From: Nitrosopumilus sp.
Lineage (GTDB): Archaea > Thermoproteota > Nitrososphaeria > Nitrososphaerales > Nitrosopumilaceae
NCBI GenBank assembly: GCA_965214775.1
Contig: OZ243974.1
Coordinates: 1,120,001 to 1,184,000, forward strand
Direction of reading: 5' to 3'
DNA: 64,000 bases
Both the position numbers and the translations under genes were made by a program. A model generated the notes under the pieces. That model did no database searches, was not told where the DNA came from, and saw only the letters and a program-made list of their open reading frames with translations. The stretch's first letter is position 1; the number at the start of each line of letters is the position of its first letter. Positions 1,579 through 12,693 of the stretch are shown here, piece by piece.

Positions 1579-2565
1579 TTACACGCGGCGCTCAAGATAT
1601 TTGTAGATGTCAACTTTAATGGAACACGTCCTAAAGTATTCTGAGACGGCTCTTTTGAGGTGATCTGCCGTATCGTAAAAGGCAGATGTGACCAGCCTGT
1701 ACTTGGCATCCTTCCAGATTGGCTCTATGCCACTCAGCTCCGGCCTAGCTACCGGCAGGTACAGCAGGACAACGTCGGGATTTTTCTTCAGGTACCTGCG
1801 AACCCTTCCGGTCTTATGCTGTGATGCGTTGTCCATCACCATCAGTACCTTTCCCCACTTTTTGCGCGCCTGCTTGAGATAACGCACAAAGTTTATGCTG
1901 TTGAACTTGTCGTATGTGTGCATCAGCCTGGTTCCGTCGTCTGCAACCGTTCCGTATACCACGACGCGCTCCCTTCTGCCGGATCGTTGCACCTCGATCC
2001 TGTCCCCCACTGGCGACCAGAACTTTCTGCCGTCCCTTCCCGTACTGACGAATATCGACTCGTCCTGTACGGTTATCCTGAATCCGCGCCTTTTTGCAAG
2101 CCTAATCGTGTCTTTTGCCTCCCTTTGCCATCGTCTTACCTCCTTTGCGTCGGCAGCATTTGCCAGCTTGGTAGTTGACGTCTTTAGCGAGAATCCCATC
2201 GTGCGCAGGATTCTTCTGATGCTTCCAACGCTGTATGTGACATGCAGTTTGCGGCGCACCCAGTTGCGCATCTTCTTTGGGGTGAGCTTTTCCATCCTGC
2301 GCAGCCTCGTGGCGATCTTTTTTATCCTGCCGACTGGGACCTTTGGCTTTTTCCCCCTGTTGGGGGAGTCACGGAGACCGTCAACGCCGTCAAGCTCAAA
2401 CCTCTCAACCCACATCTGTACTGTACGCTGTGTCACGTCGGCAATCTCTGCGGTCTGTGCAGTGGTGTTGCCAAGCAGTACGGAGCGCACCGCTAGGATT
2501 CTGGTATAAACCCTGTTATCCTTTTCGACACGCATGGCATCCGTGAGGATTTTCGTCTTGTTCAT
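1579..2565 (-). CDS. IS630 transposase
   Basis: HTH N-terminus and QDES, MDNASQH and PELSGIE DDE motifs. The ORF-track start at 2595 lies in the inserted IS110 end, so ATG at 2565 is preferred. Confidence 0.9.
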   Translation of the reverse strand: MNKTKILTDAMRVEKDNRVYTRILAVRSVLLGNTTAQTAEIADVTQRTVQMWVERFELDGVDGLRDSPNRGKKPKVPVGRIKKIATRLRRMEKLTPKKMRNWVRRKLHVTYSVGSIRRILRTMGFSLKTSTTKLANAADAKEVRRWQREAKDTIRLAKRRGFRITVQDESIFVSTGRDGRKFWSPVGDRIEVQRSGRRERVVVYGTVADDGTRLMHTYDKFNSINFVRYLKQARKKWGKVLMVMDNASQHKTGRVRRYLKKNPDVVLLYLPVARPELSGIEPIWKDAKYRLVTSAFYDTADHLKRAVSEYFRTCSIKVDIYKYLERRV

Positions 2566-2705
2566 GTCAGAAGGGCCATGGCGGAGATCTCCCATATGAA
2601 ATCGTACCAGATCCTACCGTGGACCCTTGCCAGCGTGATGTTCCGAATCAGGACAATGTTGCTATGCGATGCATCCTCTTATACTTTCTCTGCGTGAGAG
2701 TCTTG

Positions 2706-3746
2706 TCTATCATACGAAAATTAGTTCCGCCTAAGATCAGGCGTACTTTGAAGGATTATTTTAGGCTGTACCGATCAAAAAACGTGAGGAAAAAATTGGA
2801 GGAAAAGTCGCTCCGGTACATAGAAAAGCAGAGGAAAAAGGGCGTGCCTGCAAAGCAGATAGCCCGGGAGCTGGGCATCAGCGACAGGTATGTCAGGAAG
2901 ATATGGGCCAGATTCCGCAGCTCCGGCACAGTCCTGCCACGGAGCGGGGCAGGAAGGCCCTGCATGGACACGGATCCCGTGGATGTGGAGGCGGTCCTTG
3001 ACGCATATGCGCGGATGCCGTCGGGTGTGGAGAGGCTGGCATTGCGCATGAGGGCCGCAGGCAGGCAGATAAGCTACCATGCAGTATACAGGATCATGAA
3101 GGCCGAGGGAATAACGGACGGCTCGCCTGCCAGACCCAGACAGCTCAAGTGGCTGCGCTATGAGCGCAAGTACTCCAATGCAATGTGGCACGTGGACTGG
3201 CACGAAATGAAGGATTCACGCCTAGAAAAACTCAATCTGGTGGCATATCTTGACGATTCCTCGCGGTGCATAACCGGATTTGGCGTCTTTGAGCGCGCGA
3301 CCTCGGAGAACGCAGTCCTGGTGCTGCGCAAGGCCATCAAAGAGTTCGGGACGCCGGCCCAGGTACTCTCGGACAACGGCAGCTGCTTTACGTCAGCCAG
3401 GCGCGGTACCCCAAGGGGCAGCTGGACGCCCACGCTGTTTGAGAACGAGCTGCTAGAGCACAGCATCGTCCTGCTCAACTCGCGTCCGCATCACCCCCAG
3501 ACCAACGGCAAGTTGGAGAGGTGGTTCAGAACGCTTGAGAAGGAGCTGACGCACTTTGAGAAGGTAGACGAGTTCATCGAGTTCTACAACGAGCACAGGA
3601 CGCACTGGTCGCTTGACATCAAGCGTGCAGAGACTCCCAGAATGGCGTTCCGGAGCCGGGAGGCCACAGAAGCGATCAGGAAAAGCGACCCCAAATGGAT
3701 GGAGAAGGATACTAATGAGGGGCGGAACTAATTTTCATATGAAACA
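2706..3746 (+). mobile_element. IS481-family element with 15-bp TSD
   Basis: TIRs TCTATCATACGAAAATTAGTTCCGCC and GGCGGAACTAATTTTCATATGAAACA. TGCGTGAGAGTCTTG occurs at 2691-2705 and 3747-3761. Confidence 0.9.
2784..3731 (+). CDS. IS481 transposase (rve integrase core)
   Basis: WHVD, LSDNGSCF and PQTNGKLER motifs. Confidence 0.92.
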   Translation: MRKKLEEKSLRYIEKQRKKGVPAKQIARELGISDRYVRKIWARFRSSGTVLPRSGAGRPCMDTDPVDVEAVLDAYARMPSGVERLALRMRAAGRQISYHAVYRIMKAEGITDGSPARPRQLKWLRYERKYSNAMWHVDWHEMKDSRLEKLNLVAYLDDSSRCITGFGVFERATSENAVLVLRKAIKEFGTPAQVLSDNGSCFTSARRGTPRGSWTPTLFENELLEHSIVLLNSRPHHPQTNGKLERWFRTLEKELTHFEKVDEFIEFYNEHRTHWSLDIKRAETPRMAFRSREATEAIRKSDPKWMEKDTNEGRN

Positions 3747-3934
3747 TGCGTGAGAGTCTTGCTCTGAGTGCGGTACTCTTCTCCGGTGGTCAGCATGTGC
3801 CAGATTATCTCCAGCATATGCCTTGCAACTGCAATCTTTGCCTTCTGCCATCCTCGTCTCTTTCTTATCCTTTCATATATAGAACCAAGTCTTGAGTCGT
3901 TTCGTACTGCTGTGGCCGAGTTGATCATGTTATC

Positions 3935-4122
3935 ACCTCCTTTTTGATCAAAATGCCTGATCCGGGCGGAATCTCCCATTCACCGTCTGCGCGGTATATT
4001 GCTTTCCGCCTGCTGTTACGAGTCAGTCTATAAAACACCCTTGTACATGGTAAGATCACATCGACTCTCAGGCCCAACGATAATTGTATATCACAGGATA
4101 CTGATAAGATTTCATATAGCGT
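3935..4122 (-). ncRNA. Putative IS110 bridge/seek RNA, copy 1
   Basis: Non-coding left end with two hairpins bearing internal loops, whose strands match the target and donor junction sequences (see findings). Confidence 0.65.
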
Positions 4123-4820
4123 CTATAAACCTTCACAAGACGTGTAATCAGGCGAAATTTTCAATGATCGTCAGTATAGATGAGGTTTCCGCGCTTGCGC
4201 ATCAGGGCCAGCAGGAAGGCGTGTCTGTAGGACAACTTGCACCGGTTTCCGGGCCCGTCGTCCTCGTCCTCAGAAAACAGGGGGGCACTCTGTATGCTTT
4301 TTGGCCTTCTCCGTATACAGGTTTAATATATATTCAAACTGACGCAGGTTCAGGGACGTGGTGGCCTGCAGGGATTCGCTACCGATTATGATGTCATCAA
4401 GCACCTCGAGCCTGTGCATGAACGCGGCGTTCTCTGCGGTATGCCTTTTGTCATTCCATGTTACAGGCCAGAACCCGCGCTCAAAGTCCAGCCTCTGGTT
4501 TAACTGCCCTATCTTGTCCTGGGCCTGCTCGTACATTTGCCTGTACTGTGCATTCTCCCTCCCTTGCTGCCTGGCCTCCCTCTTGTCCTGAATCTTCTCC
4601 TGCCTGTGCCTTTGCCTGTACTGCTCATTCGCTTTCCTCAGTTGCCGTATAAGCACGGTCTCGGACTTTGCCATCACTCCTGTTCGAGGATGGATCCCGG
4701 ATCTAAATCAACCGACTGAAAATAGTTGCAGTTTTGATCAAATATTTTGGACAATGCGAGGCGCTGCCTGCCAGCCTGATGCATGATCAGCTTGCAAACA
4801 GGATATTTCGATCCGGGCGA

Positions 4821-7912: not shown

Positions 7913-9310
7913 GTGATTACAATGGATGCTTTAATTAAAAAGTCTACCAACTTGAACGGAAAAATACGAGTTCCTGGTTCTAAATCCTACACTCACAGAG
8001 TGATTGCAGCTGCCTCTCTCTATGGAAGCAATACATTAATTCGAAACCCGTCAAACTCTGATGCAAACGATGCCATGATTAAAGCATGTAGACAATTTGG
8101 CGCCTCTGTTGAATGGGATGGAAACAATATCAGGGTCAAGGGCGTAAAGGGTCATCCTACTCCGGACAAGCCCATTGATGTTGGTAATTCTGGAACTGCT
8201 ATGAGAATTGCAGTGGCTTTGGCGAGCTTGGCAAAAGGCAACTTGATAATAACAGGTGATCCTTCTTTACAAAACAGACCCACCAGGCCTTTGCTTGACG
8301 CTTTAAGGACCCTGGGTGTTGATTTGACTGGAATTTGTAAACAGACTGATGACGGCATTCAAGAATTTGCTCCAATTACAATCAATGCAACCGGTAGTGT
8401 AAGGGGCGGAAAAGTAGAGATATCTTGTAAAGAAAGTTCCCAATATCTGACTGCATTACTACTTGTTGGCAACTTTGCACAAAACGATGTTGAAATTACA
8501 GTAGCAGACACTGTTGTTTCTAAACCATATGTTAGAATGACTCTGGAAGTATTGCGTAAATTTGGACTAGACATCCGTGCTTCAGACGATTTAATGACAT
8601 ACAAAATCAAATCACAACAAGACTATCACAAGCCAGACAATTATGACATACCTGGGGATTATTCACAAGCCGCATTCCCGTTGGCAGCCGCATGCCTGGT
8701 CAATTCCGACATTAGAGTAAAAGGATTGGATCCAAATGATCAACAAGGCGATAAGATTATTGTGGATATTCTTAGGAGAATGGGTGCAATAATTGAAGAA
8801 GACGGTGATGACCTTGTTGTAAAAGGATCATTTGATCTGCGTGGAATTGAGGTTGATCTGATTGATGCCCCTGACCTATTTCCCGTACTGTCTGTATTGG
8901 GAATTTATGCTAACGGAAAAATGCGGTTGTACAACATGCCGCAAATTCGCTCCAAGGAGACTGATAGAATTGCAGTAATTGAACGCGAGTTGACAAAATA
9001 CGGAGTTAGAATAGAATCAAAGCATGATGAAATGACTGTATACCAGACTGACTTGCCTGAAAAAGAGTACGTGTTTAGTGCAAAAGGTGATCAGGGAGTG
9101 ACTGACCACAGAGTTGCCATGGCGTTATCCTTAATTGGCATTCGTAGCGGCTGTTCTGTCATTAAAGAAGCACACAAAATCGACGTTTCATATCCTGATT
9201 ATCTAGATGACATGGAGAGTATTGGAGTCAACATAGACAGAACGGGCTCAGAGACACCGTCAATTGATGCCAAACCAAAAAATGAAGTTACTCCCAATCT
9301 GGAAATGTGA
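7913..9310 (+). CDS. aroA: 3-phosphoshikimate 1-carboxyvinyltransferase (EPSP synthase)
   Basis: PGSKSYTHR, DVGNSGTAMR, SSQYLTALL, PGDYSQA, RSKETDR and DHRVAMA motifs. Confidence 0.92.
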   Translation: MITMDALIKKSTNLNGKIRVPGSKSYTHRVIAAASLYGSNTLIRNPSNSDANDAMIKACRQFGASVEWDGNNIRVKGVKGHPTPDKPIDVGNSGTAMRIAVALASLAKGNLIITGDPSLQNRPTRPLLDALRTLGVDLTGICKQTDDGIQEFAPITINATGSVRGGKVEISCKESSQYLTALLLVGNFAQNDVEITVADTVVSKPYVRMTLEVLRKFGLDIRASDDLMTYKIKSQQDYHKPDNYDIPGDYSQAAFPLAAACLVNSDIRVKGLDPNDQQGDKIIVDILRRMGAIIEEDGDDLVVKGSFDLRGIEVDLIDAPDLFPVLSVLGIYANGKMRLYNMPQIRSKETDRIAVIERELTKYGVRIESKHDEMTVYQTDLPEKEYVFSAKGDQGVTDHRVAMALSLIGIRSGCSVIKEAHKIDVSYPDYLDDMESIGVNIDRTGSETPSIDAKPKNEVTPNLEM

Positions 9311-9328
9311 AAAGACCTGCGATTGCTG

Positions 9329-9438
9329 GTAACAGCTCGGGCTCTGGGTGCAGTCCATGATTTCATGCGCGAATCTGCCCGGGAGGTTCTCCAAGATGGC
9401 AAAACTCATCCCTGAACTTCCAGAACCCGAGCTGTTGC
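9329..9438 (+). mobile_element. MITE family A copy
   Basis: GTAACAGCTCGGG...CCCGAGCTGTTGC inverted ends. Confidence 0.75.
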
Positions 9439-9528
9439 CTCCAAAGCCGCACCTGTGGGTTCTGTGCAATCTTCGACACCTGAAATGTGGATCTTCTCCT
9501 GATTGAAACGATGGTATTCTGGACACGG

Positions 9529-9610
9529 TAGACCTCATGCGTAATCGGTTCAGATCTGGGATTATTACGAACAAATTCATCTCACTCGGGTCAATTACGC
9601 ATAAAGTCTA
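9529..9610. mobile_element. ~80-bp MITE carrying the IS5 (607-4836) TIRs
   Basis: TAGACCTCATGCGTAATC...ATTACGCATAAAGTCTA. Confidence 0.8.
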
Positions 9611-9865
9611 GCTTTTGATGCCAGATCCACGCACCGTCCTTGTTTCCACTGACTGATGCTGATGCGGCCCCTGATTCTGGCCGGTCTTGCATACTCAGAC
9701 AGGGGGCTAGTGATTTTTCGTACAGTCTTCCCAAAAGTAACCCAAAAAGCGGCTCCAATCTTGAAACCGTTCAAACCAAGCTTCCTGCAGATCCACACAT
9801 TGCCGTCTCAACTGCCACGAGTCGTGTACATCTGGGAAGACTGTGCATGCACAAGTACATTACAG

Positions 9866-10045
9866 ACGCTATATGAAATCTTATCCGTATCCTGTGATAT
9901 ACAATTACCGTTGGGCCTGAGAGTCGATTGGAACTTACCATGTACAAGGGTGTCTTACAGACTGACTCGCAACAGCAGGCGGAAAGCAATATACCGCGCA
10001 GACGGTGAATGGGAGATTCCGCCCGGATCAGGCATTTTGATCAAA
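9866..10045 (+). ncRNA. Putative IS110 bridge/seek RNA, copy 2
   Basis: Same two-hairpin architecture as copy 1, with different target-loop bases. Confidence 0.65.
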
Positions 10046-10059
10046 AAGGAGGTGATAAC

Positions 10060-10640
10060 ATGATCAACGTAGGAATAGACGTACACAAAAAGACATGCGT
10101 TGCGGCAGTAAAGGACGACTCGGGCAAGCTGCTTGAGCGGTCCACGTTTGAGAACAACGTTTTGGCAACAACGAATTTTGCAACAAACCTCAAAAAGGCA
10201 TATCCGGGACAGCTGCCAATCAGGGCAGTATGCGAGTCCACTGACAACTACTGGATTATCGTACACGACACGCTTGAGGACTGCGGGATAGACACCGTGC
10301 TGGTACATCCGGCAAAGGTCAAGGTGATAGCGCACGCCAAGATAAAGGACGACCGCGTGGACGCAAATATACTTGCCGACCTGTTCAGAGCAGACATGCT
10401 GCCAGAGTCGTTTGTGCCTGACAAGCACTACAGGGATCTCAGAATGCTGGGCAGGACCAGAACCGGCAAGACGTCAGAAGCCACCAGGTGCAAGAACAAG
10501 ATACATGCCATACTTGCAAAGTATGACTATGATCTGCACACACACGGCACGTTTACGATTTCTGCCATACAACACATCCAAGACGGGATAAGGATGCCAG
10601 GGATTGACTCGGCAACAGTCCAGATGTACCTTGACGACAC
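10060..10640 (+). pseudogene. IS110 DEDD recombinase, N-terminal half, truncated by MITE C
   Basis: VGIDVHK, CEST and KIKDDRVDA motifs; SD-like AGGAGGTGA just upstream. Confidence 0.9.
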
Positions 10641-10723
10641 TATAGCAACGGGCAGAAGTCTTTGAGTCAAAGTAGGTCATAACTACACGTAAAAAACCTC
10701 AATTATTTCTGCTCGTTGCTATA
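10641..10723. mobile_element. MITE family C (IS630-type)
   Basis: TATAGCAACG...CGTTGCTATA ends, shared with the IS630 at 29624-30729. Confidence 0.85.
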
Positions 10724-10736
10724 CATCTCCCTCCTC

Positions 10737-11768
10737 TCACTTTATGATGAGGCCCCTTGCAAGCAGCTCCTTTGTACTGCATTTTCTTCTAGATTTTATC
10801 CAGACCCGTTTTCTGTGCAAATATCGGACGTTCTGAAACAGCCAAAACACGCTCTGGAAAACTGTCTTCACGCTGGGATTCTGGGCAACATCCGTCTGCT
10901 CATACTTTGTAAAAGCGACAGAGGTGGAGCCACGCAACAGGTAGTCAAGCTTGATCTTCATCGCGCGCAGTCCGTAGACTGCCAAAAATCCCAGCACTGC
11001 CTTGAGGGATGCTGAGAGCTCAAAGTTGGTGATTTTCATCGACAGCTGGTTTTTGCCGCCATGAAAAGAGATCTCCCGTCCAAGCTTTTTTGTGGTCTGC
11101 CCCCCCAGATGAAAAACGATCGATGATGGAATGGTAAAATTCTCATATCCCAGTATGCACAGCCTCCACCCTAGATCCACGTCTTCAAAAGACGAAAAGA
11201 ATTTCTCGTCGAATCCGCCCAACTGTAGAAAAACGGTCCTGCGCATCAGCATCGAGGCGGCCTTGGCACTGAGCATCTGGCGGGGGTTGGAAATTTTCTC
11301 CTTTGAGCTGAAAGAGACGCCAAGGCAGTCTATGAAATCCCCGCTAGAGTCCACGCCATGATCCGTGTCCAGCAACAGGCTTTGGCACGAGCCCATCTTT
11401 TTGTTGTTTTCTGCCGCAGATACAAGCTCGGCAAGAAAGTCAGAAGCAACCACGGTGTCGTTGTTTAGGAACAGGAGGTACTTGCCGCCGGCGCTGCCGG
11501 CGCCAAGGTTGTTTGGGTACGCAAATCCGAGATTCTTTTCCAGTTTCAGAACCTTTGTCTTGGGATAGTGCCTTTGCACCAGCCGTATGCTGCCGTCCTC
11601 TGATCCGTTGTCCACAAGGATTATCTCGAAATTTGGATACGAATTGCCGTAAATGCTCTCAAAGCAGTTTCTCAGCAGTCTCTCGCCGTTATGGTTCACG
11701 ATTATTATGGAAACCAGCGGGTGGTGGCTTTTGACAGGCATCATGCAATGCCTTGATCTAGGAATCAT
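10737..11768 (-). CDS. GT2 glycosyltransferase
   Basis: VSIIIVN, VDNGSED, FLNND and FEDVDL motifs. Confidence 0.92.
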   Translation of the reverse strand: MIPRSRHCMMPVKSHHPLVSIIIVNHNGERLLRNCFESIYGNSYPNFEIILVDNGSEDGSIRLVQRHYPKTKVLKLEKNLGFAYPNNLGAGSAGGKYLLFLNNDTVVASDFLAELVSAAENNKKMGSCQSLLLDTDHGVDSSGDFIDCLGVSFSSKEKISNPRQMLSAKAASMLMRRTVFLQLGGFDEKFFSSFEDVDLGWRLCILGYENFTIPSSIVFHLGGQTTKKLGREISFHGGKNQLSMKITNFELSASLKAVLGFLAVYGLRAMKIKLDYLLRGSTSVAFTKYEQTDVAQNPSVKTVFQSVFWLFQNVRYLHRKRVWIKSRRKCSTKELLARGLIIK

Positions 11769-11787
11769 AAAATTATTTTGAAAATAA

Positions 11788-12693
11788 TCACCTTGATCTT
11801 CTTATGTTGTTTAGATAAAAGACAAGCAGCCTGTCGATCTGGCCGGCGGGCAGTACTCTTGACAAAAATTCCAGGCCCGAACTCATGAGCTTTTTTGATA
11901 CCGGTTTTTCGCGTCTGAAGCGCTTTAACGCGTCTGCATATCGGAGCCGCTCCTCGGGAATCAGCCTCTGGAGAACGTCGCGGCGAACCTGCTCTGTACG
12001 CAGTAACGAACCGAACACGTGCTGCCTGGACAGCTGCTGGGAATGAACCCTGTATTTTAGCAGCGGCCTGTCAATCAGGTAGAAGCTCATCTGGCCAATC
12101 AATCCGGCCTCTAGGAAAAGCGCATAGTCTACAGATACCGGGTCATCTGGCCGGCGGGAGGAGATGATGCTGCTACCGCCGCATCCCTTGCCAAAAAACT
12201 TGCCGGGAATCAAGCTTGTGTTGACGTTGATCTGTTGTCCGTCAAGCAGCCTGACGTTAAAATCAAAGTTGCTCAGGCAGTTATAGTCGGTCTCAGAAAA
12301 CCTCCGCAGGAATTTGCCGTCTGCGTCGATCATGTCCCAGTTCGAGTATACTATGTAGCTGTCGCCCAATTCGCGGGACTTTGCCACCAGCCTTTCAACT
12401 GTGTAAGGATACATGACGTCGTCCGGAGAGAACCACTTGAACCAGTTTCCGCGCATCCTTTCAATGCCGGTTTGCAGCGCGGAAGCCAGGCCCCTGTTCT
12501 TTTGATCAACTATCGTGATTTTGTCCGAAAAGGTCTTCAGGATGTCCATCGACCCGTCTTGGGAGCCGTCGTTAACTGCTATCACCTCGATGTCGGCATA
12601 GGTCTGATCCAAAACGGAGGACAGTGATTCGGAGAGAAACTTTTCCGAGTTGTATACGGGGATGACAACTGAGACGGTCTGATTGTGGGCCAT
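11788..12693 (-). CDS. GT2 glycosyltransferase
   Basis: VSVVIPVYN, NDGSQD and SPDD motifs. Confidence 0.92.
   Translation of the reverse strand: MAHNQTVSVVIPVYNSEKFLSESLSSVLDQTYADIEVIAVNDGSQDGSMDILKTFSDKITIVDQKNRGLASALQTGIERMRGNWFKWFSPDDVMYPYTVERLVAKSRELGDSYIVYSNWDMIDADGKFLRRFSETDYNCLSNFDFNVRLLDGQQINVNTSLIPGKFFGKGCGGSSIISSRRPDDPVSVDYALFLEAGLIGQMSFYLIDRPLLKYRVHSQQLSRQHVFGSLLRTEQVRRDVLQRLIPEERLRYADALKRFRREKPVSKKLMSSGLEFLSRVLPAGQIDRLLVFYLNNIRRSR

What the first reader, a model, noticed from the sequence alone, without database searches (positions are those of the whole stretch)
9855..10068. Natural reprogramming: the second IS110 copy has different target-loop bases that track its flank
Seen: I count 8 differences between the two ~195-nt ends, and 5 fall in the two target-loop strands (GTGATCT vs TGGAACT; TTTATAG vs CTTACAG), while the donor hairpin is identical. 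Flanks read TTTATAG for copy 1 and ATTACAG for copy 2, and TTACAG at 9955-9960 equals 9860-9865. Only one position strictly covaries, so the evidence is suggestive. Inference: guide diversification within one archaeal genome. It predicts that the lost right flank read approximately AG-TTCCA.
Basis: partly seen in the sequence, partly recalled or inferred. Interest (0 to 1): 0.82.

Follow-up and report, generated by a model that had tools for sequence, protein, structure and literature searches.

The report
Archaeal jumping gene with reprogrammed guides
Two copies of an RNA-guided jumping gene in this archaeal genome do carry different guide letters that match their own insertion sites, which is a clear natural example of a mechanism already described in bacteria.

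Summary
The two ~195-nt left ends (window 9864-10058 + and 4124-3930 -) differ at exactly 8 positions, and 5 of them lie in the two strands of one internal loop (P=4.5e-5).

The element is an IS110-family insertion sequence (PF01548 + PF02371). Its left end folds into a bridge/seek RNA with a basal stem and two arms, each with an internal loop.

The two-copy hint becomes firm genome-wide:
- In 26 copies, the 5 nt left of an AG core equal the loop's 3' strand at 112 of 130 positions (55 expected; 0 of 100,000 shuffles).
- The right flank fits the reverse complement of the 5' strand at 45 of 60 positions (31.6 expected).
- Uninterrupted paralogous sites show LT-AG-RT with a single AG.
- The rule repeats in five other genomes of the family.
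- The second loop matches the element's own ends, with covariation.

The predicted lost right flank of copy 2 (AG-TTCCA) cannot be tested. Copy 2 is cut at 10639 by a MITE-associated deletion, its left flank is unique, and I found no empty allele. Hybrid-guide misfit copies make the prediction uncertain.

Natural reprogramming is already published, so this is a new member of a known kind. It has an unusual mix of IS110-type and IS1111-type features.

The parts
9859..9863 (+). Left target half (LT) of copy 2 (W2), ATTAC. Four of its 5 nt equal the guide.
9864..9865 (+). Core dinucleotide AG at the left junction of W2.
   Evidence: AG flanks both ends of complete copies and occurs once in empty paralogous sites.
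9866..10059 (+). Non-coding left end of W2, holding the bridge RNA gene. A 10-bp subterminal inverted repeat lies at 9871-9880.
9910..10035 (+). Bridge/seek RNA core fold: a basal stem, a target-binding arm and a donor-binding arm.
   Evidence: Fold; covariance model R1; pair counts.
9926..9935 (+). Target loop 5' strand, GATTGGAACT. Its reverse complement predicts AG + TTCCAATC on the right.
9953..9962 (+). Target loop 3' strand, TCTTAC-AG-AC. It reads as left flank + core + the first two bases of the element (handshake-like).
9983..9993 (+). Donor loop 5' strand. Its first 6 nt are related to the reverse complement of element bases 2-7 (4 of 6 in this subfamily).
   Evidence: The regex misplaced subfamily A, so I recounted it by eye.
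10008..10017 (+). Donor loop 3' strand, AATGGG-AG-AT. It reads as right-end terminus + core + two further bases.
10060..10639 (+). Truncated recombinase gene of W2: the first ~193 codons, covering the DEDD domain only.
10641..10723 (+). 83-nt MITE with inverted ends that ends W2. No element sequence follows it.
   Evidence: 108 further matches in the genome to 10560-10900, most of them starting at 10641.
3920..4122 (-). Left end of copy 1 (W1), with the bridge RNA at 4078-3953. Core AG is at 4124-4123 and the LT GTTTAT at 4130-4125.
2591..3929 (-). Rest of W1, an internally deleted mini-element. The recombinase 3' remnant and right end occupy 3929-3747 and 2704-2591. A 1,041-bp rve-type IS at 3746-2705 splits them.
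2581..2590 (-). Core AG (2590-2589) and right target ATCTCCGC of W1. They lie in the 5' leader of an IS630-like (DDE_3) transposase gene at 2562-1579.

Best explanation
This is an IS110-family insertion sequence, about 1,334 bp between two AG dinucleotides. Its 360-aa DEDD recombinase is aimed by a bridge (seek) RNA encoded in the left end, upstream of the gene.

The RNA has a basal stem and two arms, each with an internal loop. In the first loop, the 5' strand is complementary to the top strand of AG + right flank. The 3' strand has the same sequence as left flank + AG, so it would pair with the bottom strand. It then continues with the first two bases of the element. In the second loop, the 5' strand is complementary to element bases 2-7, and the 3' strand equals the right-end terminus + AG.

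Insertion puts the element at LT-AG-RT and leaves an AG on each side. Copies in this genome carry at least five guide classes, each matching a different multi-copy site inside other mobile elements. Window copy 1 is a 480-bp recombinase-less mini-element sitting in a site that fits its own guide. Window copy 2 is a dead, truncated copy whose left flank fits its 3' strand.

Shown here: the anatomy, the sequence concordance, the structural covariation and the empty sites. Inferred from the published IS621, ISEc11 and ISEc21 work: that the RNA is made, that it binds the recombinase, and that base pairing causes the site choice.
For: Protein:
- PF01548 (E=3e-28) and PF02371 (E=6e-21).
- The best solved relatives are the ISCro4 and IS621 recombinases, E about 1e-11, with the GIDV, CEST and DDRVDA motifs aligned.

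Structure:
- Subfamilies A and B give the same three-stem fold.
- Compensatory pairs at 61:102, 74:88 and 135:151 in 21 sequences.
- In a model-fitted alignment of 23 distinct sequences from 6 genomes, 92.6% of cells are paired against 84.5% when shuffled (0 of 500). 13 of 28 pairs change on both sides. Slid controls give 32-47%.

Left flank against the 3' strand, 5 nt:
- 112 of 130 in 26 copies, 55.0 expected, 0 of 100,000 shuffles.
- 75 of 90 in 18 distinct loci, 37.8 expected, 0 of 100,000.
- Subfamily A alone: 44 of 55, 26.4 expected, 99 of 100,000.
- The signal stops at position -5.

Right flank against the 5' strand:
- 45 of 60 in 12 copies, 31.6 expected, 7 of 100,000.
- 9 distinct contexts: 32 of 45, 22.4 expected, 169 of 100,000.

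Empty paralogous sites with a single AG:
- Copy-1 class: 8 empty (one of them diverged) and 3 occupied.
- Copy-2726222 class: 3 empty and 3 occupied.
- Copy-808417 class: 10 empty and 3 occupied.

Other genomes: the left 5 nt match 5 of 5 in 11 of 14 loci from G095, G044, G091, G110 and G036. The other three score 3, 2 and 3. Among these loci, G095 alone has four guide variants.

Donor loop (12 sequences):
- The 5' strand equals the reverse complement of element bases 2-7 at 6 of 6 in 5 sequences, 5 of 6 in 2 and 4 of 6 in 3. The two subfamily-A rows are misread there as 1 of 6; by eye they are 4 of 6.
- Matched changes appear both within G095 and between genomes.
- The 3' strand ATGGGAG equals the right-end terminus plus core in all 12.
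Against: No RNA evidence exists: no listed sequencing run is on record as RNA, and no Rfam family matches.

Misfit copies:
- 2169386: left flank 1 of 5.
- 2634801: right flank 2 of 5.
- 2787934: right flank 1 of 5.
- 1690518: left flank 2 of 5.
- G044 L048: 2 of 5, and its right flank also misfits.
- G036 L053 and G095 L038: 3 of 5 each.

Within subfamily B the guides do not track the one variable flank position (31 of 35 against 30.3 when shuffled; 45,727 of 100,000 shuffles reach it).

Copies of one class share ancestry, so the permutation values overstate independence. The alignment was fitted to the structure being tested.
Confidence: 0.9

Rival explanations
1. Copy 2's guide/flank match is only a half-match. 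In this reading copy 2 belongs to a hybrid-guide lineage, with a 5' strand of the CAGT|AG|TTCC class and a 3' strand of the TTAT/TTAC class. It inserted, or was later altered, so that only one half fits. The lost right flank then need not have read TTCCA.
For: Copy 2169386 (5' strand TGGGA, 3' strand CTTAT) differs from copy 2 by one base in each strand, and it sits at a CAGT-type left flank that its 3' strand does not match. G110 loci L055 and L056 combine the TCGGAA 5' strand with a TTTAT 3' strand at a CTCAGT flank. Backbone markers on both sides of that guide are of the CAGT-class type. Copy 2726222 has copy 2's 3' strand but sits in a CTTAT site. Half-match insertion by IS621 is reported in a preprint, 10.64898/2026.08.31.748434 (I read only the abstract and outline).
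Against: The same 5' strand goes with TTCC on the right in copy 2746642 and in four G095 copies. Most copies fit on both sides.
Confidence: 0.35
2. The guide variants did not diversify in this genome. They arrived as already different elements by horizontal transfer within a mobilome shared among related archaea.
For: G110, which the tool places in another genus, holds a left end scoring as high as this genome's own (161.9 bits). That copy has the copy-1 guide and sits in the same IS630-like site. The RNA occurs in 10 of 81 genomes of the family that I searched.
Against: Four mini-elements share one deletion junction, yet copy 808417 among them has different guides and a different site. So at least one change happened after that deletion. 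Where it happened is still unknown.
Confidence: 0.4
3. The loop/flank identity is an artefact of misplaced element boundaries. On this view the 'flank' belongs to the element, or to a larger repeat that carries it.
For: Several copies share 14-40 nt of flank.
Against: Those shared flanks also exist without the element, as contiguous LT-AG-RT sites. Copies with identical guides, such as 2831779 and 2784516, share only the about 10 nt around the core.
Confidence: 0.02

Closest known systems
IS621 / IS110-group bridge RNA (Durrant et al. 2024, PMC11208160; Hiraizumi et al. 2024, PMC11208158; I read passages and section 7)
   Same: - A DEDD recombinase, with the RNA encoded in the left end upstream of the gene.
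- Two internal loops: one for the target and one for the donor.
- One loop strand pairs with the top strand and the other with the bottom strand, overlapping at a 2-nt core.
- Two extra bases after the core fit the other DNA partner, like the handshake guides.
- The guide for the element's own left terminus does not pair contiguously up to the core. IS621 also has one discontinuous donor guide (its RDG).
   Different: - The order of the strands in the loop is reversed. In IS621 the guide for the flank next to the RNA-bearing end is the 5' strand; here it is the 3' strand.
- The core reads AG on the gene's strand, that is, CT on the other strand.
- The subterminal inverted repeat is 10 bp, not 2-3 bp.
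- Protein similarity is only E about 1e-11.
- No Rfam family matches.
IS1111-group seekRNA elements such as ISEc11, ISKpn4 and ISPa11 (Siddiquee et al. 2024, PMC11187229; I read passages and section 6)
   Same: - The top-strand complement lies 5' of the bottom-strand match.
- The subterminal inverted repeat is long (7-17 bp is the stated range).
- These elements insert into the ends of other mobile elements or into repeats.
- 'Natural reprogramming' is described there for ISEc11/ISXne4 and ISEc21/ISMch6.
   Different: The non-coding region with the RNA lies upstream of the gene here. The paper says this holds for only a few IS1111 members (ISMtsp17 is named). The published natural cases compare differently named elements about 72% identical at protein level in different hosts. 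Here there are at least five guide classes among left ends 92-96% identical in one genome.
ISPpu9 / Ssr9 modules of Pseudomonas putida (PMC12288879; I saw only the search listing and abstract)
   Same: RNA-gene copies exist apart from the transposase gene.
   Different: Here the recombinase-less copies are internally deleted elements that keep both ends plus the RNA. I did not read the paper's text, so the comparison is shallow.

Membership tests
IS110 family (DEDD recombinase elements) | N-terminal DEDD/RuvC-like domain (PF01548) | tested here: met
   E=3.3e-28 in the full copy and 9e-28 in window copy 2. The acidic motifs align with ISCro4.
IS110 family (DEDD recombinase elements) | C-terminal PF02371 domain with the conserved serine motif | tested here: met
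   PF02371 at E=5.8e-21. The serine aligns with ISCro4's ...ESG, but the next residue here is A rather than G. Window copy 2 lacks this domain because it is truncated.
IS110 family (DEDD recombinase elements) | Site- and orientation-specific insertion with a 2-nt core at both ends and no longer duplication | tested here: met
   AG lies on the left of all 26 copies with an intact start. It lies on the right in 12 of 13 right ends (one reads TG). It occurs once in empty sites.
Bridge RNA / seekRNA | Structured RNA in the long non-coding end, with two internal loops | tested here: met
   Predicted folds. Covariation. This is prediction only.
Bridge RNA / seekRNA | Target-loop strands matching both strands of the insertion site and overlapping at the core | tested here: met
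Bridge RNA / seekRNA | Donor loop matching the element's own two termini | tested here: met
   The right-end side matches in 12 of 12. The left-end side matches at 4 to 6 of 6, with covariation.
Bridge RNA / seekRNA | The RNA is expressed, binds the recombinase and is needed for recombination | not testable with these tools
   No RNA run is listed and no biochemistry was possible.
Bridge RNA / seekRNA | Match to a curated RNA family model | tested here: not met
   Rfam 15 gave no relevant match at E up to 10 over window 9700-10200. I do not know whether Rfam holds a bridge RNA model.
IS1111 group | Subterminal inverted repeats of 7-17 bp | tested here: met
   A 10-bp perfect repeat lies 5 nt from the left terminus and 3 nt from the right (sequences).
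IS1111 group | Long non-coding region and RNA downstream of the recombinase gene | tested here: not met
   The RNA lies upstream. The right end measures about 60 nt from the stop codon to the terminus in L001 (stop at 1579, terminus at 1636), which is far shorter than the left end.
IS1111 group | Top-strand complement 5' of the bottom-strand match in the RNA | tested here: met
   compared with PMC11187229.
IS110 group (IS621-like) | Left-target guide on the 5' strand of the loop, with the right-target guide and handshake bases on the 3' strand | tested here: not met
   The order is reversed when left and right are defined by gene orientation. It would be met if the DNA is read on the CT strand. 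In that case the gene cassette is inverted relative to IS621.

The most novel reading that the evidence does not exclude
Co-resident guide alleles of one bridge-RNA element act mainly in cis. Each copy is steered by its own RNA, including the 480-bp recombinase-less mini-elements that must borrow the enzyme. The family thereby partitions a genome's other mobile elements into separate landing pads. The DNA that encodes the guide mimics the element's left junction (LT-AG-AC), so it is itself a recombination site, producing left-end stubs and partial tandem copies.
Probability: 0.4. Interest if true: 0.6.

Novelty: new member of a known kind. Interest (0 to 1): 0.45.

Why it matters
RNA-guided recombination by IS110/IS1111 elements and 'natural reprogramming' of their guides were both published in 2024, so the principle is not new.

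This genome adds an unusually dense natural data set:
- One element family has at least five guide classes.
- Both occupied and empty sites are present for three of the classes.
- Recombinase-less mini-elements keep their own guide.
- Misfit and hybrid-guide copies show where the rule bends.
- There are traces of recombination at the guide gene itself.

The data set could serve three uses:
- Estimating mismatch and wobble tolerance.
- Testing whether the RNA acts in cis or in trans.
- Supplying an archaeal recombinase/RNA pair that mixes IS110-type and IS1111-type features.

My literature searches listed no paper whose title or abstract describes bridge RNAs in this archaeal family. They cover open-access papers and bioRxiv only, and supplementary tables of the 2024 papers, which list thousands of orthologues, were not available to me.

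Tried and rejected
- Plasmid collection, blastn with window 9800-10700: no match.
- Rfam at E up to 10: only a chance 8-bit hit.
- Empty allele of the copy 2 locus in relatives: window 9600-9863 matched 0 of 30 other genomes, and all 27 matches were repeats in the own genome.
- Copy 2's left flank has no paralogue in the genome at up to 3 mismatches in 24 nt.
- The predicted full site TTACAGTTCC occurs 4 times, none occupied. About 5 are expected by chance, by my arithmetic.
- Sequencing runs: 22 were listed, with no RNA holder among them.
- I laid contigs of 4 runs from 4 studies on window 9000-11800.
  - No contig joins the left flank to a non-element sequence.
  - The joint 9843->10674 in one run has only 27 letters on its shorter side. 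It lies between two repeat families, so I do not read it as an empty allele.
  - Contigs in 3 runs cross the element/MITE junction at 10639/10641 as in the window.
- A MAFFT/RNAalifold run on 12 sequences from 6 genomes was spoilt by my loose coordinates and a lineage-specific insertion. I replaced it with a covariance-model alignment.
- The first Pfam call failed on a frame error and I corrected it.
- One script crashed on a regex and I redid it.
- I rejected the idea that the guide is rewritten by recombination at its own template. A single crossover at that AG would remove the 5' half of the RNA gene.

Full report
**1. Observation**

I aligned the two left ends, window 9846-10075 (+) and 3913-4142 (-). 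Between the AG and the start codon there are 8 differences.
- Five fall in two short stretches: TGGAACT vs GTGATCT, and CTTACAG vs TTTATAG.
- The remaining 3 are scattered.
- The second hairpin is identical in both copies.
- TTACAG at 9955-9960 repeats 9860-9865.
- Five of 8 differences inside 14 of 195 positions has hypergeometric P=4.5e-5.

The description is accurate. That position fails elsewhere: copy 2726222 has the same guide C over a flank T.

**2. The element and its copies**

The window is G000:C1:1120001-1184000, in a 2.83-Mb genome of one contig. Its SSU rRNA scores 1459 bits with the archaeal model and 1097 with the bacterial one.

BLAST and nhmmer found 40 left-end matches at E<=1e-3. 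Of these, 28 cover the first loop (a covariance model also gives 28).
- Three copies are complete (2746642+, 2751230-, 2030284+). The element sequence spans about 1,334 bp between two AG dinucleotides.
- The ORF is 376 aa, or 360 aa from the conserved MINVG start.
- It carries PF01548 and PF02371.
- Its best solved relatives are the ISCro4 and IS621 recombinases, E about 1e-11.

Window copy 2 (W2):
- Core AG is at 9864-9865, and the non-coding left end runs to 10059.
- The gene runs from 10060 but stops matching at 10639.
- An 83-nt MITE with inverted ends begins at 10641. BLAST gave 108 further genomic matches to 10560-10900, 60 of which start exactly at 10641.
- After the MITE comes the 3' end of an unrelated gene on the other strand. 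The right two-fifths of W2 and its right flank are gone.

Window copy 1 (W1, minus strand, 4122 to 2591):
- It is a 480-bp internally deleted derivative: 209 nt of left end fused to the last 286 nt.
- It is 99.5-100% identical to copy 181545, flanks included.
- A 1,041-bp rve-type IS at 3746-2705 splits it.

**3. The RNA**

Left-end positions 47-172 fold into a basal stem that closes two arms, each with an internal loop.
- The same architecture comes out for the about 70%-identical subfamily B.
- Energy z-scores are unremarkable (-0.3 to -2.2), so the case rests on covariation.
- RNAalifold on 21 sequences keeps both stems of the first arm and the inner stem of the second. Compensatory changes occur at 61:102 (UA to CG in 7), 74:88 (AU to GC in 7) and 135:151 (5).
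- I built a covariance model from the 14 subfamily-A sequences with my own structure. It found 31 matches in 33 loci from six genomes.
- On that alignment (23 distinct rows), 92.6% of cells pair against 84.5% in shuffles (0 of 500). 13 of 28 pairs change on both sides. Slid controls pair at 32-47%.
- That alignment is fitted to the model, which favours the structure.
- No Rfam family matches.

**4. Guides against flanks**

In every copy with an intact start, the element begins after AG. In 12 of 13 right ends, AG follows the terminus ...CATATGGG; one reads TG.

Left side:
- The 3' strand of the first loop reads [5 nt]-AG-AC. The 5 nt equal the 5 nt left of the core at 112 of 130 positions in 26 copies (55.0 on shuffling; 0 of 100,000).
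- I dropped three copies whose first bases are replaced by other insertions (369537, 1269602, 2343063), and all fragments without the loop.
- Taking one locus per distinct flank context, and keeping the misfit 2169386: 75 of 90 against 37.8 (0 of 100,000). Subfamily A alone: 44 of 55 against 26.4 (99 of 100,000).
- Positions -6 and -7 show no signal (5 of 16 and 3 of 16, as expected by chance).
- Within subfamily B there is no tracking of the single variable position (31 of 35 against 30.3).

Right side:
- The reverse complement of the 5' strand predicts AG + right flank.
- The first 5 nt match at 45 of 60 in the 12 copies that have their own right end (31.6 expected; 7 of 100,000).
- In 9 distinct contexts they match at 32 of 45 (22.4 expected; 169 of 100,000).
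- In copy 808417, 6 of 8 positions match, and the two mismatches would be G:U pairs.

Copies of a class share descent, so these figures overstate independence. What matters is sequence identity between loop and flank, about 86% per position. A mere association between lineage and site would not produce that.

**5. Empty sites**

Three target classes lie in repeats that also exist without the element. There they read LT-AG-RT with a single AG.
- GGTTTAT|AG|ATCTCCGC (copy 1 class): 7 empty sites, 1 diverged empty site and 3 occupied sites.
- AAGCTTAT|AG|ATCATGGG: 3 empty and 3 occupied.
- CAAACAAAC|AG|ATTA...: 10 empty and 3 occupied.

This excludes misplaced boundaries and shows the 2-nt core.

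**6. Other genomes**

A protein search found relatives in 21 of 81 genomes of the family, this genome included. The RNA model found 10 of 81.

In 14 loci from five genomes, the left 5 nt equal the guide 5 of 5 in 11 loci. The other three score 3 (L038, which has a 3-nt insertion at the junction), 2 (L048) and 3 (L053).
- G095 alone has four guide variants among the 8 copies fetched, and each fits its own left flank.
- One G095 copy fits 8 of 9 on the right, the ninth being a G:U pair.
- Four G095 copies carry the same 5' strand as W2 and have TTCC on the right.

**7. Donor loop**

The 3' strand of the second loop contains ATGGG-AG in all 12 sequences compared. That equals the right-end terminus plus core.

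The 6 nt after the outer stem on the 5' strand equal the reverse complement of element bases 2-7:
- 6 of 6 in five sequences (both G095 variants, which differ by a matched change, and G036);
- 5 of 6 in two;
- 4 of 6 in three;
- the two subfamily-A rows were mis-registered by my regex and are 4 of 6 by eye.

The two bases after the core in the first loop equal the element's first two bases in 7 of 12 sequences and one of the two in the other 5. This is what the IS621 handshake guides would predict. The analogous bases of the second loop fit the right flank well only in subfamilies A and B.

**8. Misfits and the prediction for W2**

- Copy 2634801 has a CAGT-class left flank and guide but a copy-1-class right flank. 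The two sites lie 60 nt apart in the same host element. Recombination between two tandem copies would explain it; this is inference.
- Copy 2787934 is followed by AG and then left-end sequence from position 98.
- Copy 2169386 and G110 loci L055 and L056 have hybrid guides, with a 5' strand of the CAGT|AG|TTCC class and a 3' strand of the TTAT class. They sit at CAGT-type left flanks.
- W2 differs from 2169386 by one base in each strand.

W2's left flank fits its 3' strand. Its right flank could have read TTCC..., as in 2746642 and G095, or could have been unrelated, as in a half-match insertion (preprint abstract). No test was possible.

**9. Where the element lands, and what else it does**

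Every class targets another mobile element.
- CAGT|AG|TTCC is the tip of the inverted ends of two DDE_Tnp_1 IS families. I found 33 exact sites, most in inverted pairs 1.25 or 1.5 kb apart.
- The copy 1 class lies in the 5' leader of an IS630-like gene.
- The 808417 class lies in the left end of a second IS110-family element.
- The subfamily B site is the tip of a repeat with 116 exact sites.

Two kinds of mini-element exist, with 4 and 3 copies, each kind sharing one deletion junction. Copy 808417 is one of them. It fits its own guides (5 of 5 left; 6 of 8 plus 2 wobble right) better than the guides of the longer copy 549050 in the same site class (3 of 8 right, counted by eye). This hints that the RNA acts in cis.

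Three structures look like recombination at the guide-encoding DNA, always at its AG:
- 1348672-: a left-end stub ending in guide + AG, then a right target.
- 2787934+: right end, AG, then left end from position 98.
- G091 L050: a stub followed by a full copy.

**10. Comparison with what is known**

The mechanism is the one described for IS621 (PMC11208160, PMC11208158) and for seekRNA elements (PMC11187229). 'Natural reprogramming' is reported in the latter for ISEc11/ISXne4 and ISEc21/ISMch6. In the former it appears as concordance of natural guides with their target motifs. Archaeal IS110 recombinases are known: 662 in 2,835 archaeal genomes, according to the methods passage of preprint 10.1101/2024.06.21.599552.

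The element mixes the two groups.
- Like the IS110 group, the RNA lies upstream.
- Like the IS1111 group, it has a 10-bp subterminal inverted repeat and the top-strand complement comes first.
- Siddiquee et al. note that a few IS1111 members have an upstream non-coding region.

I therefore file it as a new member of a known kind. The finding is correct and well supported, but it is not a new principle.

Noticed in passing
window 10641-10723: An 83-nt MITE with inverted ends, having 108 further genomic matches to window 10560-10900. Here it marks the truncation of IS110 copy 2. Another copy cuts the first bases of left end 369537.
   Followed up: partly
window 9328-9843: The stretch upstream of copy 2 is a mosaic of three short repeat families (about 9328-9440, 9529-9610 and 9723-9843). 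Together they gave 221 further BLAST matches in the genome.
   Followed up: partly
window 2705-3746: A 1,041-bp IS encoding an rve-type integrase, present in 8 copies at 99.7% identity or more. It cuts copy 1 at the same element position as it cuts the partial copy at G000 2788695, and a direct repeat of about 15 nt flanks it.
   Followed up: partly
window 1579-2590: The IS630-like (DDE_3) element that hosts copy 1. The IS110 right end supplies an in-frame ATG that artificially lengthens the host transposase ORF to 338 aa.
   Followed up: partly
G000 1348576-1348672 (-), G000 2787934-2788521 (+), L050 (G091): Left-end stubs and partial tandem copies whose junctions lie exactly at the AG of the guide-encoding DNA. 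They look as if the guide gene, which mimics the left junction, had itself been used as a recombination site.
   Followed up: partly
G000 2169386 (+); L055 and L056 (G110): Hybrid target loops: the 5' strand comes from one guide class and the 3' strand from another, and the copies sit at left flanks that fit only the class of the 5' strand. In L055 the backbone markers on both sides of the changed guide are of the first class, so the change is a 3-base patch confined to the guide.
   Followed up: partly
L054 (G110:C2:1909350-1911350): A genome that the tool places in another genus holds a near-identical mini-element. It has the copy-1 guide and sits in the same IS630-like site, which suggests a shared or transferred mobilome.
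   Followed up: no
window 36500-62200: Very long arrays of 156-nt and 171-nt tandem units in three blocks (20-30 copies per family, some 99% identical). They probably belong to giant repetitive coding regions.
   Followed up: no
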